Shown one piece after another: positions 22,259 to 37,565 of a stretch of 64,000 nt of DNA. Below the pieces are notes generated by a model, which was not told the origin of the DNA, ran no database searches, and saw only the letters and a list, made by a program, of their open reading frames with translations. Position 1 is the first letter of the stretch, and each line of letters begins with the position of its first letter. The stretch covers positions 2,069-66,068 of the forward strand of contig CAVQLY010000016.1 of assembly GCA_963713475.1 (NCBI GenBank), in the 5' to 3' direction. The position numbers and the translations under genes were made by a program. Source of the stretch: an uncultured Thermoleophilia bacterium (lineage in GTDB: Bacteria > Actinomycetota > Thermoleophilia > UBA2241).

Positions 22259-23905
22259 TCAGGCGGAGGCCGGCTTGCCCTTCTTGGACTGATCGATGAG
22301 CTCCTTGGCCTTGAGCGCCAGCCAGAACTCCATGCGGTCCTGCGACTGGTTGAGGTCGCGGCCGGTGATCTCCTCGACGCGCTTCATGCGGTACCGCAGC
22401 GTGTGGCGGTGTACGTACAGCTTCTCGGCGGCGTCGCCCCAGTGGCCGTTGGCCTCGAGGAAGCAGGCCAGGCTCTTGACCAGGTCGCTCGAGTTCTGCT
22501 CGTCGTAGTCCTGGAGCTTGCCGAGGACGCTGTCGTAGAAGACCTCCAGCGACAGCGTGTCCTGCAGGCCCAGCAGCAGCCCGTAGGAGCCGAGGTCGTC
22601 GAAGCTGGCGATGACCCTCGGCTCTCCCTTGAGCTTGCGGATCTTGATGGCGTAGCTCGCCTCGTAGTAGCTCTGGCGAAGGTCGATGAGCTTCCGGTGC
22701 GGCCGGCCGATGCCGATGGACACGGAGATCTCGGGCAGCATCTCGGTGATCACGGTCTGGAGCTCCCCGGCAAGTCGGATGATCTCTCTGGCGTCGACCT
22801 TGCCCGGTTGAACCAGGATGACGACGGAGTCGCTGCGCGACGCGCTGATGCACAGCACGTCGCGCCTGGCCATGAACTCGTCGACGGTCCAGTGCAGGCG
22901 CTCCTTGACGTCCGCGGCGGCGGCGTCGGTGCGCTCCGCCGCTTCGTCCTCCTGCGCGTCGATGTCGACGAGCACGATGAGGTGGGGCGACTGCGGCTCG
23001 AGCCCGAAGAAGGCGAGCCGCCGGGCGATCTCCTCTTCGTAGAGGTCGCTGGCGATGAGCTCGTCGAAGAAGTCGCCGGCGAGGCGCTTCTCGGTCTCGG
23101 CCACGGCCTTCTTCTTGACCAGTTCGAGCGCCGTCACGGTGACGACGTTGTGGAGGATGATGCGGTCGTACTCGCTGAAGTCGCCGCTGTCCTTGACGAC
23201 GGCGAGGAACGCGCCGATGCGGTGCGACGCGACCACCGGGTAGACCTGCACGCCCGAGCCCACGCCCTCCATGCTGAGGGCGAAGTTCTGGCGGTCGGCG
23301 CGGCGGTCGCCGATCATGCGCCAGAGGTCGGCGATGAGCTCGGCGCCCAGGTGGCGGCGGTACGCCGCCTCGCAGAGCACCACGCCGTGGAAGTCGAAGA
23401 GCACGGCCGAGCAGCCGACGAGGGCCGAGAGCGTGGAGAGGATCGCCTCGAGGCCCTTCTCCTCCAGCACGATCTTGGTGAGCTTCTCGTGGACGGCGAG
23501 GCTGCGCTGCAGCAGCGAGTACTGCTCGTTGACGATCTTGGAGGCGACGGCCTCGGTGATCGCGAGGAACGGTACGTGGTACGGGACCTCGAACAGCGGG
23601 AAGCCGTACTCCTCGGCGACGGCGACGATCGCCGGCGGGACCTTGTCGAAGCTGAAGCCGGTGCCGAAGCCGAGTCCGGAGATGTTGTGGTCGATGAGGC
23701 GCTTGATCTGCGCGACCTGCTGCTCCTCGCTGCCGACGAAGCTGTAGCCGGTGGTGAGCAGCAGTTCACCGCCCTTGAGCCACTTGGTGGGGTCGGGGAC
23801 TTCGGTGATGTGGACCCACCGTACCGGGTTGCTCGTGGACTTGTGCCCGGCCAGCAGGCGCAGGTTGAGCTCGGGGATCTCAAGGATGTCCTGTACGGTG
23901 ATCAT
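22259..23905 (-). CDS. PucR-family transcriptional regulator
   Basis: 548 aa. The N-terminal purine-catabolism-regulator-like domain reads MITVQDILEIPELNLRLLAG...WVHITEV.DPTKWLKGGELLLTTGY. The C-terminal HTH reads LYVHRHTLRYRMKRVEEITG. Confidence 0.85.
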   Translation of the reverse strand: MITVQDILEIPELNLRLLAGHKSTSNPVRWVHITEVPDPTKWLKGGELLLTTGYSFVGSEEQQVAQIKRLIDHNISGLGFGTGFSFDKVPPAIVAVAEEYGFPLFEVPYHVPFLAITEAVASKIVNEQYSLLQRSLAVHEKLTKIVLEEKGLEAILSTLSALVGCSAVLFDFHGVVLCEAAYRRHLGAELIADLWRMIGDRRADRQNFALSMEGVGSGVQVYPVVASHRIGAFLAVVKDSGDFSEYDRIILHNVVTVTALELVKKKAVAETEKRLAGDFFDELIASDLYEEEIARRLAFFGLEPQSPHLIVLVDIDAQEDEAAERTDAAAADVKERLHWTVDEFMARRDVLCISASRSDSVVILVQPGKVDAREIIRLAGELQTVITEMLPEISVSIGIGRPHRKLIDLRQSYYEASYAIKIRKLKGEPRVIASFDDLGSYGLLLGLQDTLSLEVFYDSVLGKLQDYDEQNSSDLVKSLACFLEANGHWGDAAEKLYVHRHTLRYRMKRVEEITGRDLNQSQDRMEFWLALKAKELIDQSKKGKPASA

Positions 23906-23986
23906 CGCCGGGATTCTACACGATGTCCTAGTACAGCGCGAGGGTGTCGAACGTCAGGATGTGTGCAGGTTTGTACGTTCTGGCAG

Positions 23987-25636
23987 TCAGCGGCGGCGCA
24001 GCACCCGTCCCGGGAGCGCGCCGGTGTGCACGCCCTCCTCGAGGACCGGCTCGCCGTTCACGAGCACCCAGTCGATGCCCTCCGGCGCGGCGTGCGGGAT
24101 GTTCTCGAAGGGGAACGCGTGCGGATAGAGGTTCGTCGCCCGGTCGCGCACGCGGTCCAGGTCGAACACCACGAGGTCCGCCCGCAGACCCGGCCGCAGG
24201 ACGCCACGGTCGAAGAGACGGAAGCGCTGCGCCGGGAACGAGGTCATCTTGCGGATGGCCTCCTCGAGGCGCAGCACGGGCTCCTCGCGCACGTAGCGCT
24301 CGAGCACGCCCGGGTACTCCCCGTAGCTGCACGGCCAGTACAGCGACGGGTCGTCGAGCTCTTCCGGCGGCGCCATCACGAGCCCGTCGGACGAGATCAT
24401 CGCGATCGGGCTCTGCAGCAGGGCGCGGATGTTCTTCTCCTCGATGTAGTCGAAGAGGCCGATGAGGTCGTCGTCCTCCTCGACGATGAGGTCGAGGAAG
24501 GTGTCGAAGCCGTCGGCGCCGCGCTCGGCGGCGATGTCGGCGACGGAGCGGCCGCGCAGCTCCGGGTGGCGGCCGGCGTGGTACACGACCACCCGGTCGA
24601 AGCGGCCGTGCCGGACCACACCGGCGTAGCCGGCGCCCGGGAGCGAGTCCTCCATCACCTCGCGACGCAGCGCGGCGCGGGCGCCGGGGTCCGAGAGCAG
24701 CGCGATGAGCGCATCGTGGTCCAGATCGAGCACGGGCTGCGGCAGCGCCCGGGAGAAGCGCGGCGCAAGGTCGGTGTGGACGTCGTTGTCGGTGGTGGCG
24801 TCGAGGCCGCCGCGCCGGGCATCCTCGATGAGGCCGAGGTTGGCCGACGCGTCCTCGGGGGCGCCCCACTTGGGCGCGTTGTGCGAGACCTCCACAGGGC
24901 AGCCGGCGGCGCGCCCGAGCTCGAGCGCCTCCGCCACCGCGGCGAGGATGGTCTCCCGCTCGCCGCGCACGTGGCTCGTGTAGATGCCCTGATGGCGCGC
25001 CACGACCTTGCACAGGTTCAGGAGCTCATCGGTGCCCGCGAAGCAGCCCGGCGGGTAGACGAGCCCGCTGGACATCCCGTGCGCGCCCGCGCGCAGGGAG
25101 GCGTCCAGGAGCCGCTCCATGCGCGCCAGCTCGCGCGCGGTGACGGCTCGCTCGGCGAAGCCGACGACGGCGAGCCGCAGCGCGCCGTGTCCGACGAGCG
25201 GCGCGATGTTGATCGCGTGGCCGCCGCGGCGCACCGCGTCGAGGTACTGGCGGAAGGTGCGCCAGTCCCAGGCCACGGCGTCCAGCCCCCAGGCGTAGTG
25301 CGCCCAGTTCTGGACGGCGTCGTCCCGGTGCGCGGCCGTCAGCGGCGCCGCCGACATCCCGCAGTTGCCGGTGACGTGCGTCGTGACGCCCTGGCGTATC
25401 GCGGTCTCCGCGCGGGGATGCAGCAGGATCGTCAGATCCGAGTGCGTGTGCGGGTCGATGAAGCCCGGGGTGACGTAGCGATCGGCGGCGTCGATGACGC
25501 GCCGGCCGCGCAGCGTGCCCGGCGCCCCGATGGCCGCGACCCGGTCGCCGCGCACGGCGACATCCCCGCGGTACCAGGGGTTGCCGCAGCCGTCGACGAT
25601 GCGGCCGCCGGCGATCACCAGGTCGTGCTGGATCAC
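23987..25636 (-). CDS. D-aminoacylase-type (N-acyl-D-amino-acid deacylase family) amidohydrolase
   Basis: GTG 25634-25636 overlaps the upstream stop (GTGA). The protein shows DLVIAGGRIVDGCGNPWYRGDVAVRGDRVAAIG...TPGFIDPHTHSD plus later metal-ligand-like H/D positions. Confidence 0.8.
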   Translation of the reverse strand: MIQHDLVIAGGRIVDGCGNPWYRGDVAVRGDRVAAIGAPGTLRGRRVIDAADRYVTPGFIDPHTHSDLTILLHPRAETAIRQGVTTHVTGNCGMSAAPLTAAHRDDAVQNWAHYAWGLDAVAWDWRTFRQYLDAVRRGGHAINIAPLVGHGALRLAVVGFAERAVTARELARMERLLDASLRAGAHGMSSGLVYPPGCFAGTDELLNLCKVVARHQGIYTSHVRGERETILAAVAEALELGRAAGCPVEVSHNAPKWGAPEDASANLGLIEDARRGGLDATTDNDVHTDLAPRFSRALPQPVLDLDHDALIALLSDPGARAALRREVMEDSLPGAGYAGVVRHGRFDRVVVYHAGRHPELRGRSVADIAAERGADGFDTFLDLIVEEDDDLIGLFDYIEEKNIRALLQSPIAMISSDGLVMAPPEELDDPSLYWPCSYGEYPGVLERYVREEPVLRLEEAIRKMTSFPAQRFRLFDRGVLRPGLRADLVVFDLDRVRDRATNLYPHAFPFENIPHAAPEGIDWVLVNGEPVLEEGVHTGALPGRVLRRR

Positions 25637-26739
25637 GCCTCCCCCATCTCGAACACCTGGTACTTGTTCTCGCACGGCGGGCCGGCGCAGGCGTAGAGCC
25701 GGCGCTGGTCCAGGTCGCAGATCATGCTCCCGACGGTCATGCCCTGGTCCGCCGGCGCCTCGTCCGGCTCCGGGTGGCCGCAGATGCAGTCGTCCAGCGA
25801 CGGCACGTGCGTGCGCAGGACCCGGGCCACGAGGTCCACCGGGTCCTCGCCGGCGGCGATGCCTTCCGCGAGAAGCCGTTCCGCGGTCGAGAGCCTGACG
25901 CTGGACTCCCCGCCGCCGTAGCCCTCGTACGGCTGCATCGCCGGCGAGACGTAATGGTTGGAGTGCGCCATGAGCCCCGCCCCGGTGTGGTCCATGAGAG
26001 CGTGCGCCGTGGCGGACGTCTCGAGGTCCCAGAGGCGGCCGCCGGTGTCGGCGAAGAACTGGTTGGTGCCGCGTGCGCGGGCGGCCAGCAGCCCCCGGTC
26101 CCGCGCCTCCTCCAGCGTCCGCGCCTCGAGCGTCGACCGGCGCACGAACACGTTAGGGACGCCGATGCGGTTGTCGTTGGAGTGCACCGAGTTGCTCACG
26201 TTGCCGATGCCGTGGTTGTTCATGCCCAGCATGAGCAAGTATGGCGCTCCGGCGAGGCCCATGATGCGGGTCCCGTCCGGGCCGGTGAGGTCGAAGAGGA
26301 CGTTGTTGACCGCATCGATGACGTACCAGTCCATGTTGTGCCCCACGATGTGGCGCCCGCCGGCGACGACGGCGACGGCGGTGCAGTGGTCGCCGGACCG
26401 GGGCGAGCCGGGCGGAGGCGGCACGGCAGGCTGCTCCTTCGCAGTGAACTCCTCGCCGCAGTTGAGGACGAGCAGGCGTTGGAACGGGACCTGCGCGCCT
26501 TCGGCCAGGCCCTCGAGCTCCTCCACGTAGTGGGGAAGCCAGCGACGCGCCTGCTCGGCATAGGCGCCAGCCTGGAGCTCCGCCTCGTCGAATGTGAGGC
26601 GGCCGGCCGTCATGGACGTGAAGTTCTCACGGAAGAAGTCGACCGAGGCCTGCACCTGCTCGCGAGCCGCCTCTCCGACGGCGCGACCGAGCTCGCGGTG
26701 CGAGCCTTTGGCCTGGACGTGGACGAACGGGATGGCCAT
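25633..26739 (-). CDS. C45-family Ntn acyltransferase/hydrolase (acyl-CoA:6-APA acyltransferase-like)
   Basis: 368 aa, MAIPFVHVQAKGSHRELGRAVGEA..., with a putative self-processing site GDH/CTAVAV and HNMDW...MLGMNNHGIG. Confidence 0.7.
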   Translation of the reverse strand: MAIPFVHVQAKGSHRELGRAVGEAAREQVQASVDFFRENFTSMTAGRLTFDEAELQAGAYAEQARRWLPHYVEELEGLAEGAQVPFQRLLVLNCGEEFTAKEQPAVPPPPGSPRSGDHCTAVAVVAGGRHIVGHNMDWYVIDAVNNVLFDLTGPDGTRIMGLAGAPYLLMLGMNNHGIGNVSNSVHSNDNRIGVPNVFVRRSTLEARTLEEARDRGLLAARARGTNQFFADTGGRLWDLETSATAHALMDHTGAGLMAHSNHYVSPAMQPYEGYGGGESSVRLSTAERLLAEGIAAGEDPVDLVARVLRTHVPSLDDCICGHPEPDEAPADQGMTVGSMICDLDQRRLYACAGPPCENKYQVFEMGEA

Positions 26740-26748
26740 GACGTCAGT

Positions 26749-28224
26749 CTACAGCCCGAGCACGTGGCGCGGGTCGGGATGGCCGGATACGCCGAGTTCC
26801 GCGGCGCAGCGCCCGATGAGCGCGACGAGCTCGCCCAGGACGTCGTCGGGAAGGCCGACGGGATCGCGGTCGGCGAGGTCCGCGGCCTTGTCCGAGGCGA
26901 GGTCGACGAGCCCCGCACGCCCCGAGGCGAGCCAGTCGCCGAGCCCGCCGCGATAGCTCAGGAGCGGGCTGACGAACTCGCCGCGGATGTAGCGCCGCGT
27001 GTGCTTGGTGCCGAGGAACCCGCGCCCGGAGAGCACGCCGTCGACCATCGCGTCGATGTCGAGTGCGCCCTCATCCCACGGTCGAGGCGTGAGCGCGTAG
27101 CGGACGTTGTTGAGCACCTCGTCGTCGATGACCAGGACCTCGAGGCAGCTGGCCACACCGGCCTGGATCTCGCCGATGCCGGAGAGCAGGCGCGGCTTGG
27201 GCGCCAGGCCCAGCAGCGCGTTGACGGCGCGCTCGTAGCCGAACTGCGCGTCGACGACCTTGCTGTCGCTGCACGGGCCGTAGCAGTCACAGGCGAGGCC
27301 GCAGCGACGTGCGAGCAGCACCGCCGCCGCGGAGGCGACGCCGGTCTCCGGAGTGCCGCTCACGACGACACCGCTGCGCGGGTCGACGGCGCTGAGGCGC
27401 GGCCCGTAGTAGACCGGCGTGCCGGGCGCGGCCGCCTGCGTGAGCACGACGCCGGCGAGCACCTCGGCGTGCTGCTGCGCGAGCGCCGCCGAGAGAGCGC
27501 CGGGCGCCGTGGTGGCCGCAGCCGGACACGGCAGGATCTCCACGGCCACGCCACCGCGACGGACCTGCTCCACCAGCGCGTCCGTGACGTCGCCGCCGAG
27601 GATGAGAGGGCTCACCGGCGAGAACGCGAGGTCGATCGGATACACGCCGTCCGCCCCGTCGGCGCCGGTGACGGCCAGCGCCATCTCCTGCAGGTATCGA
27701 GCCTGGAACGGATGCGAGATGCCGGGGCCGCCGATGGCCTTGTCGGTCTCGAAGGCGAGGATCAGGTACGAGTAGAGCGGCTCGAGCAGGTCGGGGACGT
27801 CCTCCGGCTGCCAGAGCGACGTGACCTGCTGCTGGTGCACGAGGTTGTGCATGACGCGGGTCGCCAGGACCTGGTCGCGCAGCGTCGCCCGGCGGAGTGC
27901 GCCGGTGCGCGGATCGGCCACGTCCGCGGCGCCGCCCAGGTTGTGCACGTAGGTAACGCCGGGGTCCGGGTCCATGGAGAGCGAGCGCTCCGGGTCGCGC
28001 GCGGCGAGCACGTACTCGCGCGGGCAGGCGGCCAGCGCCTCCTCCACAGCCCGGCGCGGGACCGCCAGGCGGTCCTCACCGACCGGGCTGCAGCCGGCCG
28101 CGAGCAGAAGTTCCCGCGCGGCCTGCGACTCCACGCGCACGCCCGCCCGTTCCAGGAGGGCGAGTGCGGCCAGGTGCATCGCCTCGATCGCTTCGTCGGG
28201 CCAGACGGCGGCGGGCTCGGTCAT
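26749..28224 (-). CDS. MttB-superfamily methyltransferase (non-pyrrolysine)
   Basis: 491 aa with no in-frame stop. The N-terminus reads ...AIEAMHLAALALLERAGVRVESQAARELLLAAGC. The overall length and pattern fit trimethylamine methyltransferase family members such as the betaine methyltransferases. Confidence 0.75.
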   Translation of the reverse strand: MTEPAAVWPDEAIEAMHLAALALLERAGVRVESQAARELLLAAGCSPVGEDRLAVPRRAVEEALAACPREYVLAARDPERSLSMDPDPGVTYVHNLGGAADVADPRTGALRRATLRDQVLATRVMHNLVHQQQVTSLWQPEDVPDLLEPLYSYLILAFETDKAIGGPGISHPFQARYLQEMALAVTGADGADGVYPIDLAFSPVSPLILGGDVTDALVEQVRRGGVAVEILPCPAAATTAPGALSAALAQQHAEVLAGVVLTQAAAPGTPVYYGPRLSAVDPRSGVVVSGTPETGVASAAAVLLARRCGLACDCYGPCSDSKVVDAQFGYERAVNALLGLAPKPRLLSGIGEIQAGVASCLEVLVIDDEVLNNVRYALTPRPWDEGALDIDAMVDGVLSGRGFLGTKHTRRYIRGEFVSPLLSYRGGLGDWLASGRAGLVDLASDKAADLADRDPVGLPDDVLGELVALIGRCAAELGVSGHPDPRHVLGL

Positions 28225-28264
28225 GCGGCGTCATCCTCTCGTGTAGGTCGTGCGTTGAGCTTCA

Positions 28265-30127: not shown

Positions 30128-30192
30128 GCTCGAACGCGGGCCGGCCGGGGCGGTGTGCGCCTCGCGGCACCGCCCCGGCCGGCCCTCCTCCG

Positions 30193-31236: not shown

Positions 31237-32315
31237 ACCCCTTCCTGGTCCGGTGCCGCTTCGTCGACCTCGACGAAGGCGTCGCTACGGAAGCTTCTCG
31301 CGTGGACGCAGCGCACGAAGTGCCCGCGCTCGACCTCGGTGAGGCCCGGGTGCTCCGTCTCGCAGGCCGCGATCTTCTCGTCGCAGCGCGGACAGAAGGC
31401 GCAGCCCGCCGGCGGGTTGATGAGGTTGGGCGGGTCGCCCTTGATGGAGCTCACCATCTCGCGCTTCTCGTGGATGTTCGGGAAGGCCTTGATGAGCTGC
31501 CTCGTGTACGGGTGCGTCGCGTTGTTGAAGATATCGGCGGTGGTGCCGCTCTCGACCACCTCGCCGGCGTACATGACGACGCCCTTGTCGCAGGTCTCGG
31601 CCATCACCGAGAGGTCGTGGCTGATGAGGATGAACGAGAGGTCGAGCTCCTTGCGCAGGCGATGGATGAGCTCGAGGATCTGCGCCTGCACCATGACGTC
31701 GAGCGCCGTAGTGGGCTCGTCGCCGATGACCAGCTTGGGGTTGCAGGCCAGCGACATCGCGATCATGGCGCGCTGGCGCATGCCGCCGGAGAGCTGGTGC
31801 GGGAAGTCCATCACCCGCTTCGGGTTGATGCCGACCAGGTCGTAGAGCTCGCGCACGCGGACCATGGCCGCCTTCTCGCTGAGCCCTTCGTGCAGCTGGA
31901 TCGGCTCGGCGATCTGCTTGCCGGTCTCCTTGACCGGGTTCAGCGCGTTCATCGCCCCCTGGAAGATGATGCTGATCTCCTTCCAGCGGATCCTGCTCAT
32001 GCCGTACTCGGTGCGCTTGGCGAGGTTGCGGCCGTCGAAGAGCACGTCGCCGCTCACGATGCGGCCGTTCTCCGGCAGCAACTTGAGCAGGCTGAGCGCC
32101 GCGGTGGTCTTGCCGCAGCCCGACTCGCCGGCGAGGCCGAGACTCTCGCCACGCTTGAGCACGAAGCTCACGTCCTGGACGGCCTTGACGTCGCCGACGC
32201 CGAGCTTGAAGTAGGTGGTGAGATTGCGGACGTCGAGGAGGCCTTCGTGCTCGATGCGCTCGATGGTCTTCTTGTCGGAGGAGGGCTTCGCTTTGGTCGC
32301 TGACCTGGCCATCAC
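31233..32315 (-). CDS. oligopeptide/dipeptide ABC transporter ATP-binding protein (OppD/DppD-like)
   Basis: It has Walker A GESGCGKTT, signature LSGGMRQR, Walker B LVIGDEPTTALD and the C-terminal PPAGCAFCPRC. Confidence 0.9.
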   Translation of the reverse strand: MMARSATKAKPSSDKKTIERIEHEGLLDVRNLTTYFKLGVGDVKAVQDVSFVLKRGESLGLAGESGCGKTTAALSLLKLLPENGRIVSGDVLFDGRNLAKRTEYGMSRIRWKEISIIFQGAMNALNPVKETGKQIAEPIQLHEGLSEKAAMVRVRELYDLVGINPKRVMDFPHQLSGGMRQRAMIAMSLACNPKLVIGDEPTTALDVMVQAQILELIHRLRKELDLSFILISHDLSVMAETCDKGVVMYAGEVVESGTTADIFNNATHPYTRQLIKAFPNIHEKREMVSSIKGDPPNLINPPAGCAFCPRCDEKIAACETEHPGLTEVERGHFVRCVHARSFRSDAFVEVDEAAPDQEGV

Positions 32316-33850
32316 TTGCCTCCCTTCTCGTCGTCCTGGATGTGGCCGCCGACCCAGCCGCCGCCCTCGGGGCGGTTGATGGTGCCGCCGGCCGGCTTGT
32401 TGAAGTCGGGCATGGCGTCGTCGGTCTGCTGGCCGGGCGTGAAGATGCCCGCCCCGCCGCCGACGCCGGCGCCGCCGGCTACCGCGACGGACGGCTCACC
32501 GCGAGCCGTGAACCGGCTCTCGCTCGAGCTGTCCTCGCGCTTGCGGAGCTTGGGATCGAGGACTTCGTCGTACGCCGTGCCGATGAAGGTGAAGGCGAGC
32601 ACGACGAGGATGATGGCGATGCCCGGCGGGAGCAGGTACCACCACGCCGGGAGACCGGCGGCGCCGTTCACCCAGGCGTAGTGGAGCATGGTGCCCCAGC
32701 TGAAGTTGAGCGGGTCGCCGAGGCCGAGGAACGAGAGCGTCGTCTCCGAGAGGATGGCGATGGCCACGACGAGCACGAGGTTGGCGAAGATGAGCGGCAT
32801 CACGTTGGGCAGCACGTGCTTGGTCATGATGTGCCGGTTGCTCGAACCGATCGCCTTGGCGCGCTCGATGAAGCTCAGCTCGCGCACGCGCAGCACGTCC
32901 GAGCGTACGACGCGCGCCGTGCCGGGCCAGCTGGTGATACCGATGATCAGGATGATCATCCAGTAGTTCTGGCCCCAGGCGGCGGCGAGCACCATCGCCA
33001 GCGGCAGCCACGGGATGACCAGGAATGCGTCTGTTAAGCGCATCCATCCTTCGCCTTGCCAGCCTCCGTAGAAGCCGGCCGCGATGCCGATGCCGGCGCC
33101 GAGGACGGTGGACATGAAGGCGGCCAGGAGGCCGACCATGAGCGAGATGCGCGCGCTCCAGATGAACTGGGCAAGCACGCTCTGCCCCACCTGGTCGGTG
33201 CCGAACCAGTTGTAGTAGTAGAACGTCGGCGGGTGGTAGGCGAGGAAGAACTCACCCGTGTTCGGGTCCTTGATCTGCGCGTTCGGGTCGAGCAACGCGT
33301 GATCGGCCAGGAACGGGGCGAACAGGGCGATGGCGATGAACACCACGAGGATCCCGAGGCCCACCATGCCCTGCCAGTTGGCGCGGTAGAGCTTCCAGAC
33401 CTGGTGCGTGTTCCAGGTGGTGAGCTCGGCGCGCTCCGGGTTGCCGACGGCCCAGAGCCAGACGCAGACGCCGCCAAGGATCACGACGACGGTCTGGATG
33501 GCCCAGTTGTACGAGATGTCGTTCGAGCTGCCGGAGAAGCCGCTGAAGCCGCCGCCGGCCAGCACGCCCCACACGAGGAGCACGACGCCCTCGACCAGGA
33601 GCATGACGTTGAACGCCTTGGCCTTGCTCCTGCGCAGGAGGCCGATGGCGCCGGCGATGAAGAAGACGACCGCCAGCAGGAGCAGGACCCACGCCGGGTA
33701 CGCGCCGACGCTGGCGGAGAAGAAGCCCTTGATCACCTCGGAGAAGCCGCTGGTGATGGGCACTGTCTTCGGATACGTGAGCAACTCCAGGACGCACCAC
33801 ACGATGATCGTCCAGAAGATGACCCAGTTCCGGAAGCGACGGGGGATCAT
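32312..33850 (-). CDS. ABC peptide transporter permease (DppC/OppC-like) with extra N-terminal TM bundle and Gly-rich C-tail
   Basis: ATG 33848-33850 overlaps the dppB-like stop (ATGA). The BPD core (FAPFLA...FGTDQVGQSV...ITSWPGTARVVRS) begins only near residue 160. Confidence 0.85.
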   Translation of the reverse strand: MIPRRFRNWVIFWTIIVWCVLELLTYPKTVPITSGFSEVIKGFFSASVGAYPAWVLLLLAVVFFIAGAIGLLRRSKAKAFNVMLLVEGVVLLVWGVLAGGGFSGFSGSSNDISYNWAIQTVVVILGGVCVWLWAVGNPERAELTTWNTHQVWKLYRANWQGMVGLGILVVFIAIALFAPFLADHALLDPNAQIKDPNTGEFFLAYHPPTFYYYNWFGTDQVGQSVLAQFIWSARISLMVGLLAAFMSTVLGAGIGIAAGFYGGWQGEGWMRLTDAFLVIPWLPLAMVLAAAWGQNYWMIILIIGITSWPGTARVVRSDVLRVRELSFIERAKAIGSSNRHIMTKHVLPNVMPLIFANLVLVVAIAILSETTLSFLGLGDPLNFSWGTMLHYAWVNGAAGLPAWWYLLPPGIAIILVVLAFTFIGTAYDEVLDPKLRKREDSSSESRFTARGEPSVAVAGGAGVGGGAGIFTPGQQTDDAMPDFNKPAGGTINRPEGGGWVGGHIQDDEKGGK

Positions 33851-34815
33851 GCCTGCACCCTTGGGTCGAGGTAGTAGTACATGATGTCGGCGATGAGGTT
33901 GGCGACGATCACGGCGATGCTCGCGATGAGGAACACCGCCTGCATCACCGGATAGTCGCGCTTCTGCATCGAGTCGTAGGAGAGCAACCCCAGGCCGGGC
34001 CAGTTGAACACGCTCTCGGCGAGGATCGCTCCCGACATCACGAAGCCGAGGTTCATCATCACGATGGTGACCGTCGGGAGCATCGCGTTGGGCACGACGT
34101 GGCGCCACAGGACGGCGTTCTCACTGAGCCCCTTGGCGCGGGCCGTGAGCGCGAAGTCCTCCTTCATGACGCCGGTGATGGAGCTGCGCATGATGAGGTG
34201 GTACTCCCCGACGTAGGCGATGGCGAAGGTGAACGCCGGCAGGAACAGGTGCTTCATCAGCGACTGGAAGGAGGCGAAGCCGCTGAGCTCGACACCCGGT
34301 TCCTCCATGCGCCCCGTCGGGAACCAGCGGAGCTTGGTGGCGAACAGCATGATCATCAGGAGGCCGAACCAGAACGTCGGCATGGCGTACAGGACCATCC
34401 CTAAGTTCGTACTTACCACGTCATAGGTACCGTTGCGTCTCCACCCGGCGAACACCCCCATGATCATGCCTACAACCGTGGCGAAGACCGTCCCCACCCC
34501 CACGAGCAGGACGGTGGGCCAGATGCGCTCGGCGACGACTTCCGTGACCGGGCGCTTTTCGGAGAACGACATGCCGAACTTGCCCTGCACGGTGTCGCGC
34601 CAGTAGTAGACGAACTGCTCCCACATGGGCTTGTCGAGGTTGAACGTCTTGCGCTGACGCTCGATGACCGATGGGTCGGTCTTCCCCTTGGGGAGAAGGA
34701 GCCGGGCGGGATCGCCCGGGAGGATGCGGAAGAGCGCGAAGTTGAACGAAGCCACGAGGATGATCGTGAGTACCGCGTTCAGCACCTTGCGAATGAAGTA
34801 GCGACGTTTGTCCAC
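33847..34815 (-). CDS. ABC peptide transporter permease (DppB/OppB-like)
   Basis: The protein shows YFIRKVLNAVLTIILVASFNFALFRILPGDP...EDFALTARAKGL. The start is tentatively GTG 34813-34815. A strong GAAGGAGG at about 34868 has no canonical start nearby, so the 5' end is uncertain. Confidence 0.8.
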   Translation of the reverse strand: MDKRRYFIRKVLNAVLTIILVASFNFALFRILPGDPARLLLPKGKTDPSVIERQRKTFNLDKPMWEQFVYYWRDTVQGKFGMSFSEKRPVTEVVAERIWPTVLLVGVGTVFATVVGMIMGVFAGWRRNGTYDVVSTNLGMVLYAMPTFWFGLLMIMLFATKLRWFPTGRMEEPGVELSGFASFQSLMKHLFLPAFTFAIAYVGEYHLIMRSSITGVMKEDFALTARAKGLSENAVLWRHVVPNAMLPTVTIVMMNLGFVMSGAILAESVFNWPGLGLLSYDSMQKRDYPVMQAVFLIASIAVIVANLIADIMYYYLDPRVQA

Positions 34816-35138
34816 TGCTCTGCGGATCCGCCCCGCGCCCGGCCCCGAACGCCGGCGGACCCTTGCCTCCTTCTCACTTCCGCGGTTGCCGGACCCCTGA
34901 TGGCTGCTGTGCTGGCACGCTTGTGGAAGACCCCGGACGGGGTCTCGGGAGGTTAGACGACAGCGGCGCGACGTTCCGTCGGCCGCCTGCGCGATCGGCG
35001 CCCGCAATGGTGACGACGGCCCAGCCTGTTGGACGTCTCGCCGTGTGCTACCCCCCTGGCGGCCCGGCGGCCCGCAGAGCGCGAGGCCGGGCTAGGGGGT
35101 CAGAATAGACGCAGCGGGGAGGCGCGGCAAGGCGGGGC

Positions 35139-36251
35139 TCACGCCCCGGGCAGCCGCGCCTCGCGTCCGGCGCGCCGCAGGACGCCGACGAGGCGGTCGA
35201 GCGGCAGCTCGTAGGCGGTGTTGCCGGAGCGCCCGACCGTGGTGGTCGCGGCGGTCAGCGCGTTGCAGACGCTCTCGGCGGTGGCGTCGACCGCCGCCTC
35301 GAAGAGCTCCGCCATGTGGTCGTTGGCGACCGCCGCGAGGGCGAGAAGCTCCGGTGCGCTGCGCGGCACGCGGTGCGCCGTGGTGAACGCCAGCATGATC
35401 TCGCCGCTGCCGTCCGAGGCGTACGATCCCGTCGCCGCGAGGCCCAACGCGCAGCGCTTGGCCATGCGCTCGCACTGCCGCGCGCTGAGCGGCGCGTCGG
35501 TCGCCAGGACGACGATGCAGGAGCCCTCCCGGTTCTCGAGAGGCATGAGATCGGTGATCTCGCGCCCGACGGGGACGCCGTCGATGCTGAGGCGGTGGCG
35601 CACGCCGAAGTTGGTCAGCGCCAGCACGCCCACCACGTAGTCACGTCCGTGGGCGGAGACGATCCGCGAGGACGTCCCGATGCCGGCCTTGAAGTCGAAG
35701 CACGACATCCCGGTGCCGGCCCCGACACAGCCCTCTGCCACGGGACCCTCCGAAGCACCGTCCAGCGCGGCGCGCACGTGCTCCTCCTTGACGTGCATGC
35801 CGCGCAGGTCGTTGAGGAACCCGTCGTCGCACTCGCCGACCACGGGCATCACGGCGTCCTCGAGGCCGGCCTGCGGCTGGTGGTCCATGATCCAGCGCAC
35901 CGTGGCGTCGTAGACGGCGCCGGCGCTCTGGGAGTTGGTGAGCAGGACCGGTGTCTCGACCAGGCCCCACTCGCGCACGGCGCTGATGCCGATGAGCTCG
36001 CCGACGCCGTTCGCAGCGTGCGCGCCGGCGACGACGCGCCCGTGCCAGATGTCGCCGCCGTGCGGGAAGACCGCGGTGACGCCCGTGCGGGCGGGCCCGC
36101 TGCCGTGCGGCAGTCCGGGCCCGCCCCACGAGACGGTGCAGTGGCCGACGCGCACGCCGGGCACGTCGGTGATCGCGTTGAGCGGCCCGGCCGGCAGCCT
36201 GCCGACGGCGACACCGAGGTCGCGCAGGCGGCAGCGCTCCGGCAGGGACAT
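35139..36251 (-). CDS. DmpA/S58 (P1) family aminopeptidase (L-aminopeptidase/D-esterase, beta-aminopeptidase type)
   Basis: 370 aa, with GPLNAITDVPGVRVGHCTV...GAGTGMSCFDFKAGIGTSSR...VLATDAPL. Confidence 0.8.
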   Translation of the reverse strand: MSLPERCRLRDLGVAVGRLPAGPLNAITDVPGVRVGHCTVSWGGPGLPHGSGPARTGVTAVFPHGGDIWHGRVVAGAHAANGVGELIGISAVREWGLVETPVLLTNSQSAGAVYDATVRWIMDHQPQAGLEDAVMPVVGECDDGFLNDLRGMHVKEEHVRAALDGASEGPVAEGCVGAGTGMSCFDFKAGIGTSSRIVSAHGRDYVVGVLALTNFGVRHRLSIDGVPVGREITDLMPLENREGSCIVVLATDAPLSARQCERMAKRCALGLAATGSYASDGSGEIMLAFTTAHRVPRSAPELLALAAVANDHMAELFEAAVDATAESVCNALTAATTTVGRSGNTAYELPLDRLVGVLRRAGREARLPGA

Positions 36252-36255
36252 GCTG

Positions 36256-37059
36256 CTACTCCAGGATGCCGGCGCGGTGAGCCTTGAGGTACGAGCCGCA
36301 GAAGTTGTCCTCGCCGCGGAGCGCCTCGACGGACTTGATGGTGGCCATCATCTGCTTGTTGCGCACGTCGACGATCAGGCCGTCGAGGCCGAGGCCCGCG
36401 CACATGGCGACGAAGGTGCGGTTGAGCAGGGCGCGGTTCGGCAGGCCGAAGCTGACGTTACTGAGGCCGCCGGTGGTGCGCACGGGGAGGCGCTCCTTGA
36501 CCAGCTTGAGCGTCTCCATGGTGATGCCGGGCGCGCTCGGGTCGGCCGAGACGGCCATGACCAGCGGGTCGATCCACAGGTCCTCGGCCGGCAGGCCGGC
36601 GCCGATGCAGAGGTCGTAGATCTGCTTCGCGACGGCGAAGCGGTCCTCGGCGGTCGGCGGGATGCCCTCATCGCTCAGGCACAGGCCGACGACGGGGCAC
36701 TTGTACTTCTCGATCATGGGCAGCACGGCGTCGATGCGCGGCTGCTCACCGCTGATCGAGTTGATGAACGGCACCTTGCCGCCCCTGTCGACGATCGCCT
36801 GCACGCCGGCGTCGAGCGCCTTGGGGTTGGCGGAGTCGACCATGAGCTGCATGTCGGTGACGCCCATGACGATGTCGATGAGCCACAGAAGGTCGGCCAC
36901 TTCGTCGCCGCCGGCGACGCCGCCGTTGACGTCGATCAGACCGGCGCCCGCGTCGATCTGATCCTTGGCCAGGGTCTTGATGAACTCGGCATCACGCGCC
37001 TGGATCGCCTCGGCGACCTGCTTGCGCGTCCCGTTGATCGATTCACCCATCAACAGCAT
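36256..37059 (-). CDS. pterin-binding methyltransferase, AcsE/MtgA-like (methylcorrinoid:tetrahydrofolate methyltransferase family)
   Basis: ATG 37057-37059 follows GGAGG. The product MLLMGESINGTRKQVAEAI...DVNGG...MVDSANPKALDAG...INSISGE...LWIDPLV...TTGGLSNVSFGLPNRALLNRTF aligns by eye along its whole length with AcsE-type MeTr proteins. Confidence 0.8.
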   Translation of the reverse strand: MLLMGESINGTRKQVAEAIQARDAEFIKTLAKDQIDAGAGLIDVNGGVAGGDEVADLLWLIDIVMGVTDMQLMVDSANPKALDAGVQAIVDRGGKVPFINSISGEQPRIDAVLPMIEKYKCPVVGLCLSDEGIPPTAEDRFAVAKQIYDLCIGAGLPAEDLWIDPLVMAVSADPSAPGITMETLKLVKERLPVRTTGGLSNVSFGLPNRALLNRTFVAMCAGLGLDGLIVDVRNKQMMATIKSVEALRGEDNFCGSYLKAHRAGILE

Positions 37060-37258: not shown

Positions 37259-37495
37259 TCAGACGCCTTCGGGAGGCGGGACGATCCAGTCGGGACGCCG
37301 CCGGCGACGGTCGCCGCTGCGCCGCTCACGGACGGTGGAGCCCGGCAGTTCCCGGCGCCGCTCGGAGACCCGGCGGTCGATCCTGACCACGACGTCTCGC
37401 CCGTCGAACAGCGAGGCGAACCGGCGGTACAGCCGATCGCGCACCGGTCCTGTCACGAAGAGCACGTAGCGGTCAGATCCCGTGTCTGCAGCCAT
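37259..37495 (-). CDS. hypothetical small Arg-rich protein
   Basis: 78 aa from the internal ATG 37493-37495: MAADTGSDRYVLFVTGPVRDRLYRRFASLFDGRDVVVRIDRRVSERRRELPGSTVRERRSGDRRRRRPDWIVPPPEGV. Coding is supported only by GC3 bias. Confidence 0.4.
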   Translation of the reverse strand: MAADTGSDRYVLFVTGPVRDRLYRRFASLFDGRDVVVRIDRRVSERRRELPGSTVRERRSGDRRRRRPDWIVPPPEGV

Positions 37496-37565
37496 GCTCT
37501 CATGGTACCCCGCCGAGGGGGCCGCCGACACGACTCCGGCGTAGCCGGAGCTGGCCACGGCGGAC

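What the first reader, a model, noticed from the sequence alone, without database searches (positions are those of the whole stretch)
22259..37059. Same-strand cluster joining MttB-type and AcsE/MtgA-type methyltransferases to a peptide importer and three unusual amidohydrolases
All genes are on the minus strand with short gaps or 4-nt overlaps. In order they are: a MeTr-like gene (36256-37059), DmpA/S58 (35139-36251), a 323-nt gap, DppB/C/D/F-type importer genes (30193-34815) and a family-5 SBP (28265-30127). These are followed by a non-Pyl MttB-superfamily methyltransferase (26749-28224), a C45 Ntn acyltransferase/hydrolase (25633-26739), a GTGA-coupled D-aminoacylase-type amidohydrolase (23987-25636) and a PucR regulator (22259-23905). 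Characterised non-Pyl MttB members demethylate quaternary amines (glycine betaine, proline betaine, carnitine, gamma-butyrobetaine). As far as I know they are not paired with Opp/Dpp-type peptide uptake or with D-/beta-aminopeptidase, C45 and D-aminoacylase enzymes. The mix suggests three steps: import of an N-methylated and/or D- or beta-amino-acid-containing small peptide or acyl-amino acid, hydrolytic unmasking, then methyl transfer to THF. I do not recognise this as a described pathway.
Basis: partly seen in the sequence, partly recalled or inferred. Interest (0 to 1): 0.72.

Follow-up and report, generated by a model that had tools for sequence, protein, structure and literature searches.

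The report
MttB methyltransferase cluster with peptide-processing genes
A conserved gene cluster in an uncultured soil/sediment actinobacterium (class Thermoleophilia) joins a vitamin-B12-type N-methyl-transfer enzyme pair to a peptide-type importer and three amide-cutting enzymes; a similar partnership recurs in a second phylum, which points to an undescribed way of consuming methylated, peptide-like compounds.

Summary
All genes lie on the minus strand at the stated coordinates and every family call holds. They are PucR, D-aminoacylase-type amidohydrolase, C45, non-Pyl MttB, family-5 SBP, DppFDCB, DmpA/S58 and a MeTr-type methyltransferase. Catalytic residues are intact, and gaps of 9 and 40 nt plus a GTGA overlap suggest coupled expression. 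The window comes from a Thermoleophilia MAG.

The cluster is kept in about 45 related species-level MAGs. Their flanking genes are syntenic too, so that conservation alone is weak evidence.

The decisive evidence is independent. In Anaerolineae (Chloroflexota), the MttB clade closest to this one (35-39% identity, shared motifs) lies next to an Opp/Dpp-type importer in 6 of 6 independent contexts. In several it sits between peptidase genes (C45-S9-MttB-S33, creatininase, AstE/AspA). A corrinoid protein is usually present.

Counter-evidence also exists. One MAG keeps only MeTr-SBP-MttB-PucR. SBP-MttB pairs occur alone. Chloroflexia/Limnocylindrales orthologues have none of these neighbours.

No corrinoid protein or activase is in the window. 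The glycine-betaine-binding residues of MtgB are not conserved.

Best reading: a catabolic locus for an amide-linked, peptide-like methylammonium compound. The substrate is unknown. This is a new variant of a known kind.

The parts
22259..23905 (-). PucR-family transcriptional regulator (PucR N-domain, GGDEF-like domain, C-terminal HTH); last gene of the array
   Evidence: Pfam PF07905 126.9, PF17853 65.8 and PF13556 78.7 bits. The closest NCBIfam is PmfR, far below its cut-off. Found downstream of MttB in 39 of 43 Thermoleophilia-type loci, and retained in the minimal cassette L042.
23987..25636 (-). D-aminoacylase-type metallo-amidohydrolase (Amidohydro_3), with a ~90-aa insertion relative to 1m7j
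   Evidence: Pfam PF07969 105 bits. PDB 1m7j D-aminoacylase 256.6 bits and 3gip N-acyl-D-glutamate deacylase 236.6 bits. The motifs I recall from memory as holding the metal ligands (HTH, TGNCG, SHVR, SH, SSDG) are conserved in the alignment. The start codon overlaps the C45 stop as GTGA. Present in 39 of 46 loci.
25633..26739 (-). C45-family Ntn (self-processing) acyltransferase/hydrolase
   Evidence: Pfam PF03417 47.6 bits. NCBIfam NF040521 180 bits against a cut-off of 85. PDB 2x1d isopenicillin-N acyltransferase 42.7 bits. Cys119 in a C-T motif is invariant across paralogues down to 43% identity. Present in 43 of 46 loci. Distant homologues (33-36%) again lie beside MttB.
26749..28224 (-). 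Non-pyrrolysine MttB-superfamily methyltransferase (presumed substrate:corrinoid methyltransferase, MT1)
   Evidence: Pfam PF06253 208.6 bits. PDB MtgB 9yce/2qne 146 bits. Uninterrupted ORF, with Cys318 at the Pyl-aligned position. The MtgB glycine-betaine ligands Y97, R312, H348 and F356 align with G, D313, S348 and G356.
28265..30127 (-). Family-5 (Opp/Dpp/Nik-type) extracytoplasmic solute-binding protein with an N-terminal hydrophobic signal/anchor
   Evidence: Pfam PF00496 266.8 bits. The best solved relative is B. subtilis AppA 1xoc, at only 118 bits. The N-terminus was read. An SBP (SBP1- or SBP2-like) lies upstream of MttB in 35 of 47 loci. SBP-MttB pairs also occur alone (L061, L069, L056, L016/L020).
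30193..32315 (-). Two Opp/Dpp-type ABC ATPases (DppF-like 30193-31236, DppD-like 31233-32315)
   Evidence: ABC_tran plus oligo_HPY in both. They overlap by 4 nt. DppF is present in 45 of 47 loci.
32312..34815 (-). Two Opp/Dpp-type permeases (DppC-like 32312-33850, with a long N-terminal extension; DppB-like 33847-34815)
   Evidence: OppC_N + BPD_transp_1 and BPD_transp_1_N + BPD_transp_1. DppB is present in 36 of 38 loci.
34816..35138 (-). 323-nt intergenic gap; a likely internal promoter or regulatory region that splits the array into MeTr-S58 and DppB...amidohydrolase units
   Evidence: Gap length varies from 218 to 699 nt among relatives, and the sequence is poorly conserved except near the ribosome-binding site. 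No Rfam family matches. No consensus promoter or terminator was found.
35139..36251 (-). DmpA/BapA-type (S58) self-processing aminopeptidase
   Evidence: Pfam PF03576 384 bits. PDB 2drh 320 bits, DmpA 1b65 244 bits and BapA 3n2w 239 bits. The Gly-Ser pair aligned with the pair in DmpA 1b65 is conserved (EGSCIVVLATD). That this pair is the self-cleavage site is from memory. Present in 35 of 38 loci.
36256..37059 (-). MeTr/AcsE/MtgA-type pterin-binding methyltransferase (presumed methyl-corrinoid:tetrahydrofolate methyltransferase, MT2)
   Evidence: Pfam PF00809 72.8 bits. NCBIfam PRK07535 289.9 bits against a cut-off of 259. PDB 4o0q, 2yci and 2e7f at 152-159 bits. Present in 36 of 38 loci and kept in the minimal cassette L042.
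37259..37558 (-). Small Arg-rich conserved ORF of unknown function, just upstream of MeTr (the true start is probably the internal Met, giving ~78 aa)
   Evidence: ORF seen. tblastn gave 35 hits in just over 30 Thermoleophilia loci, including L042, at the same position. No Pfam match for the L002 copy. Membership of the system is uncertain.
37566..39008 (-). NAD(P)-aldehyde dehydrogenase; a possible peripheral member (same strand, conserved neighbour)
   Evidence: Pfam PF00171 552 bits. Nearest NCBIfam models are 2,5-dioxovalerate / alpha-ketoglutarate-semialdehyde dehydrogenase, below their cut-offs. Adjacent in relatives, including L042. A role in this system was not tested.

Best explanation
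This is one catabolic locus for a small, amide-linked (peptide-like or N-acyl-amino-acid-like) compound that carries an N-methylammonium group.

Proposed mechanism:
1. A family-5 binding protein and a DppBCDF-type ABC importer take the compound up.
2. Self-processing and metallo-amidases (DmpA/S58, C45, D-aminoacylase type) cut its amide bonds.
3. The non-Pyl MttB homologue transfers an N-methyl group to a corrinoid protein.
4. The MeTr-type enzyme passes the methyl group to tetrahydrofolate.
5. A PucR-family regulator controls the array.

What is shown: gene families, intact catalytic motifs, tight same-strand packing, and recurrence of the MttB + Dpp importer + amidase partnership in two phyla.

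What is inferred: that all parts act on one substrate, the order of hydrolysis and demethylation, cobalamin dependence, and that the corrinoid protein and activase are encoded elsewhere in this genome.

My preferred, low-confidence guess for the substrate class is a peptide or conjugate whose N-terminal residue is N-methylated. Such a group blocks ordinary aminopeptidases. Hydrolysis would release a betaine-type acid that MttB can use.
For: Families and catalytic residues:
-.

Operon-like packing:
- SBP-40 nt-MttB-9 nt-C45-GTGA overlap-amidohydrolase, plus 4-nt overlaps among the Dpp genes.

Conservation in Thermoleophilia-type loci:
- C45 43/46, amidohydrolase 39/46, DppF 45/47, DppB 36/38, MeTr 36/38, S58 35/38, PucR 39/43.

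Independent recurrence:
- A metagenome scan seeded with C45 found distant C45 genes (33-36% identity) next to MttB genes in L108, L112, L114, L121 and L137.
- Those MttBs form one clade, MttB_c, labelled Anaerolineae/Anaerolineales by the sources.
- MttB_c is 35-39% identical to the window MttB. Both are only 25-33% identical to two co-resident MttB paralogues (25-31%) and to DhMtgB (27-29%).
- The two clades share the motifs HN[LM]GGARD, x-x-YG and LSG[IV]G.
- L137 and L160 read C45-4 nt-S9 peptidase-16 nt-MttB_c-overlap-S33/TAP hydrolase, with creatininase, two more MttBs, a corrinoid protein and DppCDF alongside.
- L114 reads Amidohydro_3-C45-S9-MttB.
- L108 carries an amidohydrolase 56% identical to the window's, beside C45 and MttB.
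- All seven look-ups of MttB_c homologues show an adjacent Opp/Dpp-type importer. P0343's L158/L159 closely resemble P0338's L156/L157 (same CODH/ACS-Dpp-SBP-MttB layout), so independent contexts are about six and possibly five. Six of the seven look-ups have a corrinoid protein. One has a RACo activase and an AstE/AspA deacylase directly upstream of MttB.

Corrinoid link within Thermoleophilia:
- One deep Thermoleophilia contig (L062) starts with the C-terminus of a corrinoid protein ~275 nt upstream of DppBCDF-SBP-MttB.

Precedents:
- Corrinoid proteins can be unlinked and shared (Ruegeria MtgBCD, PMC12478193).
- An accessory enzyme in an MttB cluster can convert a precursor into the true, acidic substrate (MthK and phosphocholine, PMC12155760).
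Against: - Conservation inside Thermoleophilia includes unrelated flanking genes (SDR, class A beta-lactamase, alanine dehydrogenase, AFOR). It therefore reflects shared ancestry as much as selection.
- Orthologues at 62-67% identity in Chloroflexia/Limnocylindrales have none of these neighbours (0 of 6). One sits beside an MFS transporter.
- L042 keeps only ALDH-small ORF-MeTr-SBP-MttB-PucR. L061 has SBP-MttB alone among DNA-repair genes. L034 and L059 lack the amidohydrolase.
- The SBP between DppF and MttB is missing in about a quarter of loci.
- No corrinoid protein or activase lies in the 64-kb window or within 10 kb in 70 of the 71 genome-scan loci.
- A 323-nt, poorly conserved gap separates MeTr-S58 from the rest.
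- Apart from C45 (and an amidohydrolase in L108/L114), the hydrolase families differ between the two phyla.
- Mid-distance C45 paralogues (43-45%) lie in unrelated contexts.
- No expression or biochemical data exist.
Confidence: 0.55

Rival explanations
1. The array is a mosaic of two independent modules that are neighbours by descent.
- Module (a): a compact methyl-transfer module (MeTr, family-5 SBP, MttB, PucR) for a free small quaternary amine or other methylated solute.
- Module (b): a Dpp importer with D-stereospecific peptidases (DmpA, D-aminoacylase, C45) for scavenging D-amino-acid peptides such as cell-wall fragments.
The two share a chromosomal neighbourhood, and possibly a regulator, but not a substrate.
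For: - L042 retains exactly MeTr-SBP-MttB-PucR without permeases, ATPases or hydrolases.
- SBP-MttB pairs travel alone (L061, L069, L056, and the second pair in L016/L020).
- Chloroflexia/Limnocylindrales orthologues have none of these neighbours.
- Flanking synteny shows vertical inheritance.
- L001 adds an M55 (DppA-type D-aminopeptidase) gene beside an SBP. This fits a D-peptide theme. Dpp transporter plus D-aminopeptidase operons are known from Bacillus subtilis (my own knowledge).
Against: - MttB sits inside the array, not at its edge. It lies 9 nt before C45, which overlaps the amidohydrolase.
- In Anaerolineae, the related MttB clade is wedged between peptidase genes with 16-nt and overlapping junctions, in a different order.
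- The same MttB clade, not random paralogues, is the one found next to C45/S9 each time.
- A Dpp-type importer lies beside that clade in all seven look-ups (about six independent contexts), even where no peptidase is present.
Confidence: 0.3
2. The MttB homologue in this lineage is not a corrinoid-dependent methyltransferase. It could be an MttB-fold (TIM-barrel) protein recruited as a binding or hydrolytic accessory. Alternatively, it could work directly with MeTr without a corrinoid protein. In either case the cluster is simply a peptide or D-amino-acid catabolic locus.
For: - No corrinoid protein or activase is in the window or in 70 of the 71 genome-scan loci.
- The substrate-binding residues of MtgB are replaced by Gly, Asp, Ser and Gly.
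- Chloroflexia/Limnocylindrales orthologues also lack methyl-transfer partners nearby.
Against: - A MeTr-type MT2 that passes its NCBIfam cut-off is kept with MttB in 36 of 38 loci and in the minimal cassette.
- The sister clade in Anaerolineae sits next to classical corrinoid proteins and a RACo activase.
- L062 shows a corrinoid-protein C-terminus in the Thermoleophilia version.
- Unlinked corrinoid proteins have an experimental precedent (PMC12478193).
Confidence: 0.08
3. The cluster is biosynthetic or acts in export and modification rather than catabolism. The C45 acyltransferase and the methyltransferases would build or tailor a methylated peptide-like metabolite.
For: The founding C45 member, isopenicillin-N acyltransferase, is biosynthetic (PDB 2x1d is the only solved relative). 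Methyl transfer through MeTr is reversible in principle (PMC12478193).
Against: - No NRPS, ligase, ATP-grasp or exporter genes are present.
- The transporter is a binding-protein-dependent importer.
- The partners are hydrolases (S58, D-aminoacylase, S9, S33, creatininase).
- Some Anaerolineae loci adjoin CODH/ACS, which fits with methyl groups being consumed.
Confidence: 0.03

Closest known systems
Cobalamin-dependent quaternary-amine:THF methyltransferase systems of anaerobes (MtgB/MtgC/MtgA of Desulfitobacterium hafniense; MtpB, MtcB, MtyB with MtqC/MtqA and MthB/MthC/MthA/MthK of Eubacterium limosum)
   Same: A non-Pyl MttB-superfamily MT1 together with a MeTr/AcsE-type pterin-binding MT2. 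The related Anaerolineae loci also carry the corrinoid protein and a RACo-type activase. As with MthK, accessory enzymes in the cluster may convert a precursor into the real substrate (PMC12155760).
   Different: - No corrinoid protein or activase is in the window.
- The importer is an Opp/Dpp-type ABC system with a family-5 binding protein. For comparison, the mth cluster uses an EamA-type carrier (PMC12155760); other characterised systems use BCCT- or ProU-type carriers as far as I recall (not checked here).
- Three amide hydrolases are interleaved with the methyltransferase genes.
- The MtgB glycine-betaine ligands are not conserved, and identity to MtgB is only ~27%.
- The six known substrates are free small quaternary amines (PMC12155760).
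MtgBCD of aerobic marine bacteria (Ruegeria pomeroyi; PMC12478193)
   Same: An MttB-type MT1 and a pterin-binding MT2 work with a corrinoid protein and activase encoded at separate loci. This gives a tested precedent for a cluster that lacks its corrinoid protein.
   Different: That system demethylates free glycine betaine, is tied to methionine synthesis, and has no peptide importer or peptidases. Whether the Thermoleophilia organism has a comparable shared corrinoid protein could not be checked.
Dipeptide permease operons with a D-aminopeptidase (Bacillus subtilis dppABCDE, where DppA is an M55 D-aminopeptidase) and DmpA/BapA-type aminopeptidases
   Same: A Dpp-type ABC importer is encoded together with peptidases specific for unusual (D- or beta-) N-terminal residues. 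L001 even carries an M55 gene. This comparison rests on my own knowledge of the B. subtilis operon.
   Different: Those operons contain no methyltransferases. Here MttB lies between the binding protein and C45, and MeTr directly precedes DmpA.
Anaerolineae MttB_a/MttB_b/MttB_c-corrinoid-Dpp-peptidase loci found here (L137, L154, L156-L163)
   Same: An MttB of the same superclade, an Opp/Dpp-type importer, a C45 homologue and further amide hydrolases lie on one strand with short gaps.
   Different: - These loci carry three MttB paralogues, a corrinoid protein and sometimes RACo, but no MeTr and no PucR.
- Their hydrolases are S9, S33/TAP, creatininase or AstE/AspA rather than DmpA and D-aminoacylase (except in L108 and L114).
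- They are undescribed in the literature I could search.

Membership tests
MttB superfamily (PF06253), non-pyrrolysine branch | Full-length match to the MTTB profile | tested here: met
   208.6 bits against a cut-off of 25, covering residues 5-477. PDB MtgB/MttB 146 bits.
MttB superfamily (PF06253), non-pyrrolysine branch | No in-frame UAG; an ordinary residue at the pyrrolysine position | tested here: met
   Uninterrupted 491-aa ORF. The position aligned with X (Pyl) of 7xcl is Cys318; it is Leu in DhMtgB.
MttB-type three-component methyltransferase system | Cognate corrinoid (B12-binding) protein encoded with MT1 | tested here: not met
   No B12-binding domain was found in the Pfam scans of the GC3-selected window ORFs. 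The motif scan and tblastn with five corrinoid proteins found none in the window or in 70 of the 71 genome-scan loci. The positive control worked. L062 has a C-terminal fragment. The protein may be encoded elsewhere.
MttB-type three-component methyltransferase system | Methyl-corrinoid:THF methyltransferase (MT2) encoded with MT1 | tested here: met
   MeTr at 36256-37059 scores 289.9 bits on NCBIfam PRK07535 against a cut-off of 259. It co-occurs in 36 of 38 loci.
MttB-type three-component methyltransferase system | Reductive activase (RamA/RACo) | tested here: not met
   None was found in the window by Pfam, or by tblastn with the L161 RACo.
MttB-type three-component methyltransferase system | Substrate-dependent methylation of cob(I)alamin or a corrinoid protein | not testable with these tools
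   Needs an enzyme assay.
MtgB (glycine betaine methyltransferase) | Betaine-binding residues Y97, F356 (cation-pi) and R312, H348 (carboxylate), as defined in PMC13080624 | tested here: not met
   The aligned residues are Gly, Gly356, Asp313 and Ser348. Overall identity is 27%. It should not be filed as MtgB.
DmpA/BapA aminopeptidases (peptidase S58) | Profile match and a conserved Gly-Ser pair at the position aligned with DmpA 1b65 (its role as self-cleavage site / nucleophile is from memory) | tested here: met
   384 bits. EGS-CIVVLATD aligns with RGS-IIVVLATD of DmpA 1b65. D- versus beta-specificity is not testable here.
Peptidase C45 (self-processing Ntn acyltransferase/hydrolase) | Profile match above cut-off and a conserved nucleophile Cys | tested here: met
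   NF040521 scores 180 bits against a cut-off of 85. Cys119-Thr120 is invariant in 7 paralogues down to 43% identity. Self-cleavage itself was not tested.
D-aminoacylase / N-acyl-D-amino-acid deacylase (Amidohydro_3) | Close similarity to characterised enzymes, with the motifs holding the metal ligands conserved (ligand identities from memory) | tested here: met
   256.6 bits to 1m7j. The HTH, TGNCG, SHVR, SH and SSDG motifs are conserved. However, it is below the NCBIfam PRK09061 cut-off (154.7 vs 340) and has a ~90-aa insertion, so substrate and stereospecificity are unknown.
Opp/Dpp-type ABC importer | Family-5 binding protein, two permeases, and two ATPases with the oligo_HPY C-terminal region | tested here: met
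   Signal/anchor segment read. No equivalog-level match to any binding protein of known ligand.
PucR-family regulators | PucR N-domain, GGDEF-like domain and PucR-type HTH | tested here: met
   All three domains are above their cut-offs. Effector and targets were not tested.

The most novel reading that the evidence does not exclude
A whole superclade of non-pyrrolysine MttB enzymes works on methylammonium groups carried by, or released from, peptide-like amides. Candidates include N-terminally methylated (blocked) peptides or betaine-amino-acid conjugates. The superclade comprises this Thermoleophilia clade plus the Anaerolineae MttB_c clade. The compounds would be imported by Opp/Dpp-type systems and processed by dedicated C45, S9, S33, DmpA or aminoacylase hydrolases. 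This would be a substrate class, and a link between proteolysis and C1 metabolism, that has not been described for the MttB superfamily.
Probability: 0.35. Interest if true: 0.8.

Novelty: new variant of a known kind. Interest (0 to 1): 0.62.

Why it matters
Only six physiological substrates are known for the very large MttB superfamily, and all are free small quaternary amines (PMC12155760). What the many other non-pyrrolysine members do is an acknowledged open question.

This locus and its Anaerolineae counterparts give a concrete, testable lead. One MttB superclade is consistently tied to peptide-type importers and amide hydrolases. That would widen the substrate range to peptide-like or conjugated methylamines.

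It would also connect peptide scavenging to folate-linked C1 metabolism in Thermoleophilia and Anaerolineae MAGs recovered from environmental metagenomes (I recall both lineages as common in soil, sediment and sludge, but did not check this).

It further gives a candidate role for C45 and DmpA-type enzymes, whose natural substrates in bacteria are, as far as I know, mostly unknown.

Tried and rejected
- **Riboswitch in the 323-nt gap or elsewhere.** The Rfam gathering scan of the whole window found only a tRNA.
- **Promoter and terminator consensus scan of 21.5-39.5 kb.** No more sites than in shuffled sequence.
- **Alignment of the S58-DppB gap across 30 loci.** No conserved element except the RBS region.
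- **Homologue search with C45.** The 120 listed hits were all from the same lineage (67-92% identity), so it gave no independent contexts. The metagenome scan with a C45 alignment was needed instead.
- **Chloroflexia/Limnocylindrales orthologue neighbourhoods.** No recurrent partner apart from an MFS transporter in two loci.
- **Mid-distance C45 paralogues (43-45%).** They lie in unrelated contexts.
- **Binding-protein ligand inference from solved structures.** The best hit, AppA, scores only 118 bits, which is uninformative.
- **L073 as a natural cassette swap.** Rejected, because the sequence looks frameshift-ridden.
- **Glycine-betaine specificity.** Rejected from the active-site residues.
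- **Folate biosynthesis role (FolP) for the pterin-binding gene.** Rejected. It matches AcsE/MT2 and passes the PRK07535 cut-off. The window's folE and folB lie elsewhere, at about 7.8-9.8 kb.
- **Literature searches for MttB with Opp/Dpp, peptidases, Thermoleophilia or Anaerolineae.** No description found.

Full report
**1. What is there**

The window is ~70% G+C. Gene calls based on third-position G+C and Pfam scans show an ordinary chromosomal region:
- lysyl/aspartyl-type tRNA synthetase, dus, nadC, nadB, folB, folE, ftsH, hpt and tilS;
- an aquaporin, an NlpC/P60 protein, tungsten-type aldehyde:ferredoxin oxidoreductase (AFOR), alanine dehydrogenase, a class A beta-lactamase and an SDR;
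- then the cluster;
- then an aldehyde dehydrogenase, a HisJ-type PHP phosphatase, a second family-5 binding protein, cyclic-nucleotide genes and GroEL.

Exact and near-exact copies of the MttB protein come from Thermoleophilia MAGs.

All genes are on the minus strand:
- PucR regulator (22259-23905)
- Amidohydro_3 (23987-25636)
- C45 (25633-26739)
- MttB (26749-28224)
- family-5 binding protein (28265-30127)
- DppF, DppD, DppC and DppB (30193-34815)
- a 323-nt gap
- DmpA/S58 (35139-36251)
- MeTr (36256-37059)

**2. Family checks**

- **MttB.** It scores 208.6 bits on PF06253. It is ~27% identical to D. hafniense MtgB. The ORF is uninterrupted, and Cys318 occupies the position of pyrrolysine in 7xcl.
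- **MtgB ligands.** The four residues that bind glycine betaine in MtgB (Y97, R312, H348, F356; PMC13080624) align with Gly, Asp313, Ser348 and Gly356. This is not an MtgB, and homology gives no substrate.
- **MeTr.** It passes the NCBIfam cut-off for methyl-THF:corrinoid methyltransferases. Its best solved relatives are AcsE and a D. hafniense entry (4o0q) that I recall as a methylcobalamin:THF methyltransferase, although it is deposited as dihydropteroate synthase.
- **Amidohydrolase.** It is closest to Alcaligenes D-aminoacylase and N-acyl-D-glutamate deacylase. The motifs that, from memory, hold the metal ligands are conserved.
- **S58.** It keeps the Gly-Ser pair aligned with that of DmpA, which I recall as the self-cleavage site.
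- **C45.** It passes NF040521 and keeps an invariant Cys-Thr.
- **Binding protein.** It has a signal/anchor segment but no close relative of known ligand.
- **Junctions.** The GTGA overlap and the 9-nt and 40-nt gaps with Shine-Dalgarno-like sequences were read directly.

**3. A missing part**

Every characterised MttB system needs a corrinoid protein and a reductive activase. Neither is in the 64-kb window, nor within 10 kb of MttB in 70 of the 71 related loci from the genome scan. The motif scan found every annotated corrinoid protein in the control loci.

The exception is L062. That contig begins with the last 33 residues of a corrinoid protein (…GADGYAEDA…), ~275 nt upstream of DppBCDF-SBP-MttB.

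Unlinked, shared corrinoid proteins have been demonstrated in Ruegeria (PMC12478193). The absence therefore weakens the methyl-transfer reading but does not exclude it.

**4. Is the neighbourhood conserved?**

*Within Thermoleophilia.* Across MAGs with MttB at 65-94% identity, the order MeTr-S58-DppBCDF-(SBP)-MttB-C45-amidohydrolase-PucR is kept. Counts are C45 43/46, amidohydrolase 39/46, DppF 45/47, MeTr 36/38, S58 35/38 and PucR 39/43.

The unrelated genes beyond PucR (SDR, beta-lactamase, alanine dehydrogenase, AFOR) are kept too. This is therefore vertical synteny and, taken alone, weak evidence of function.

*Informative variants:*
- L042 has only ALDH-small ORF-MeTr-SBP-MttB-PucR.
- L061 has SBP-MttB alone, overlapping by 4 nt, among DNA-repair genes.
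- L016 and L020 carry a second SBP-MttB pair.
- L046 and L095 have two C45 copies followed by the amidohydrolase. L059 has two C45 copies and no amidohydrolase.
- About a quarter of loci lack the SBP between DppF and MttB.

*Outside Thermoleophilia.* Orthologues at 62-67% identity in Chloroflexia/Limnocylindrales have none of the partners (0 of 6). One lies next to an MFS transporter.

**5. Independent recurrence**

A metagenome scan seeded with an alignment of C45 paralogues returned a second C45 clade, 33-36% identical to the window's. In L108, L112, L114, L121 and L137 it lies beside an MttB gene.

Those MttBs form one clade, MttB_c:
- Sources label it Anaerolineae/Anaerolineales.
- It is 35-39% identical to the window protein.
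- It shares the motifs HN[LM]GGARD, x-x-YG and LSG[IV]G with it.
- Both clades are only 25-33% identical to co-resident MttB paralogues (25-31%) and to MtgB (27-29%).

The gene order differs from the window's:
- L137 and L160: DppCDF, MttB_a, MttB_b, corrinoid protein, creatininase (opposite strand), C45-4 nt-S9 peptidase-16 nt-MttB_c-overlap-S33/TAP hydrolase.
- L114: Amidohydro_3-C45-S9-MttB.
- L108: an amidohydrolase 56% identical to the window's, next to two C45 genes and MttB.

Seven look-ups of MttB_c homologues at 55-87% identity gave the following:
- All seven show an adjacent Opp/Dpp-type importer. P0343's L158/L159 closely resemble P0338's L156/L157 (same CODH/ACS-Dpp-SBP-MttB layout), so the independent contexts number about six and possibly five.
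- Six have a corrinoid protein and extra MttB paralogues.
- One has RACo and an AstE/AspA-type deacylase immediately upstream of MttB.
- Some lie beside CODH/ACS or cobalamin salvage genes.

Three features argue for a functional link between this MttB superclade, peptide-type uptake and amide hydrolysis:
- The same MttB clade is involved every time.
- It is embedded between peptidase genes.
- The pattern appears in a second phylum and a different order.

**6. Mechanism**

*Shown:*
- an importer of the Opp/Dpp type;
- three amidases with conserved catalytic motifs;
- an MT1-MT2 pair;
- a PucR regulator;
- operon-like packing;
- cross-phylum recurrence.

*Inferred:*
- One amide-linked methylammonium compound is taken up, hydrolysed and demethylated to THF through a corrinoid protein encoded elsewhere.

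Known MttB substrates are quaternary amines with an acidic group. E. limosum uses a cluster-encoded kinase to turn choline into an acceptable acidic substrate (PMC12155760). By analogy, the hydrolases here could liberate the carboxylate of a betaine-type residue.

Many partner peptidases belong to families that, from my own knowledge, include enzymes acting on N-termini or blocked N-termini (DmpA, S33/TAP, S9 acylaminoacyl/DPP-type, aminoacylases). That makes N-terminally methylated peptides an attractive guess. Nothing here tests it.

Gly, Ser and Asp replace the aromatic and basic MtgB ligands. This fits a larger or different pocket, but it is only suggestive.

**7. Rivals**

The main rival is a mosaic of two modules. 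One is a compact methyl-transfer module (MeTr-SBP-MttB-PucR, as in L042). The other is a D-peptide scavenging module.
- For it: the separable variants, and the Chloroflexia/Limnocylindrales orthologues that lack these neighbours.
- Against it: the interleaving of the genes, and the Anaerolineae loci.

A non-methyltransferase role for MttB and a biosynthetic role for the cluster are both unlikely. The retained MeTr, the corrinoid proteins in the sister clade and the importer/hydrolase content all argue against them.

**8. Novelty**

The components and the MT1/corrinoid/MT2 logic are known. The following were not found in any paper in the held library:
- the combination with an Opp/Dpp-type importer and C45, DmpA and aminoacylase hydrolases;
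- the existence of an MttB superclade that carries this association in two phyla.

The search covers open-access papers only, so an existing description cannot be excluded.

I rate it a new variant of a known kind. Interest is moderate to high, because it offers a testable lead on the unknown substrates of non-Pyl MttB proteins.

Noticed in passing
window 37259-37558 (-): A small Arg-rich ORF lies between the aldehyde dehydrogenase and MeTr. Its conserved core reads YVLFVTGPxRxRLYxxFxxLFxGRDDVxVxxDRRVxERRR…RRRRPDWIVPP. It is conserved at this position in just over 30 Thermoleophilia loci (35 tblastn hits), including the minimal cassette L042. It has no Pfam match.
   Followed up: partly
L062 2-103 (+): This contig starts with the C-terminal 33 residues of a corrinoid (B12-binding) protein, ~275 nt upstream of DppBCDF-SBP-MttB. 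It is the only trace of a corrinoid protein in the 71 loci from the genome scan.
   Followed up: partly
L137, L156-L163 (Anaerolineae loci): A recurring set of three divergent MttB paralogues (a, b, c; 25-31% identical to each other) occurs with one corrinoid protein and a Dpp-type importer. Some sets sit next to CODH/ACS (L156, L158) or cobalamin salvage genes (L163). L161 adds a RACo activase and an AstE/AspA deacylase.
   Followed up: partly
window 32312-33850 (-): The DppC-like permease is unusually long: 512 aa here, and 473-529 aa in the Thermoleophilia relatives where a gene call was available. It has an N-terminal extension of about 150 aa. The Anaerolineae counterparts are 314-322 aa.
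   Followed up: no
window 39973-41820 (-): A second, orphan family-5 binding protein (~34-36% identity to SBP1-type proteins, judged from cross-hits in L042 and L061; not compared directly) lies upstream of the PHP phosphatase. It is absent from this position in relatives such as L002, where PHP follows GroEL directly. Similar SBP2-like genes appear between the amidohydrolase and PucR in other MAGs (L030, L037, L045, L050, L063).
   Followed up: partly
window 60423-61778 (+): A fusion of an OMP-decarboxylase/hexulose-phosphate-synthase-like domain with an RraA-like aldolase domain. It may be relevant to C1 (formaldehyde) metabolism.
   Followed up: no
window 43121-47293 (+): A protein with two cyclic-nucleotide-binding domains is followed by two tandem alpha/beta-hydrolase-adenylate/guanylate cyclase fusion genes.
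   Followed up: no
window 17108-18853 (-): A tungsten-type aldehyde:ferredoxin oxidoreductase is conserved a few genes from the cluster in most relatives. This hints at an anaerobic or facultative lifestyle.
   Followed up: no
L073 8000-14400: This locus from a close relative shows fragmented reading frames and only 49-58% apparent MttB identity. Assembly frameshifts are a more likely cause than a real cassette swap.
   Followed up: partly
L001 3500-4342 (+): One Thermoleophilia variant carries an M55 (DppA-type D-aminopeptidase) gene and a TetR regulator between S58 and the Dpp permeases. This adds another D-specific peptidase to the locus.
   Followed up: no
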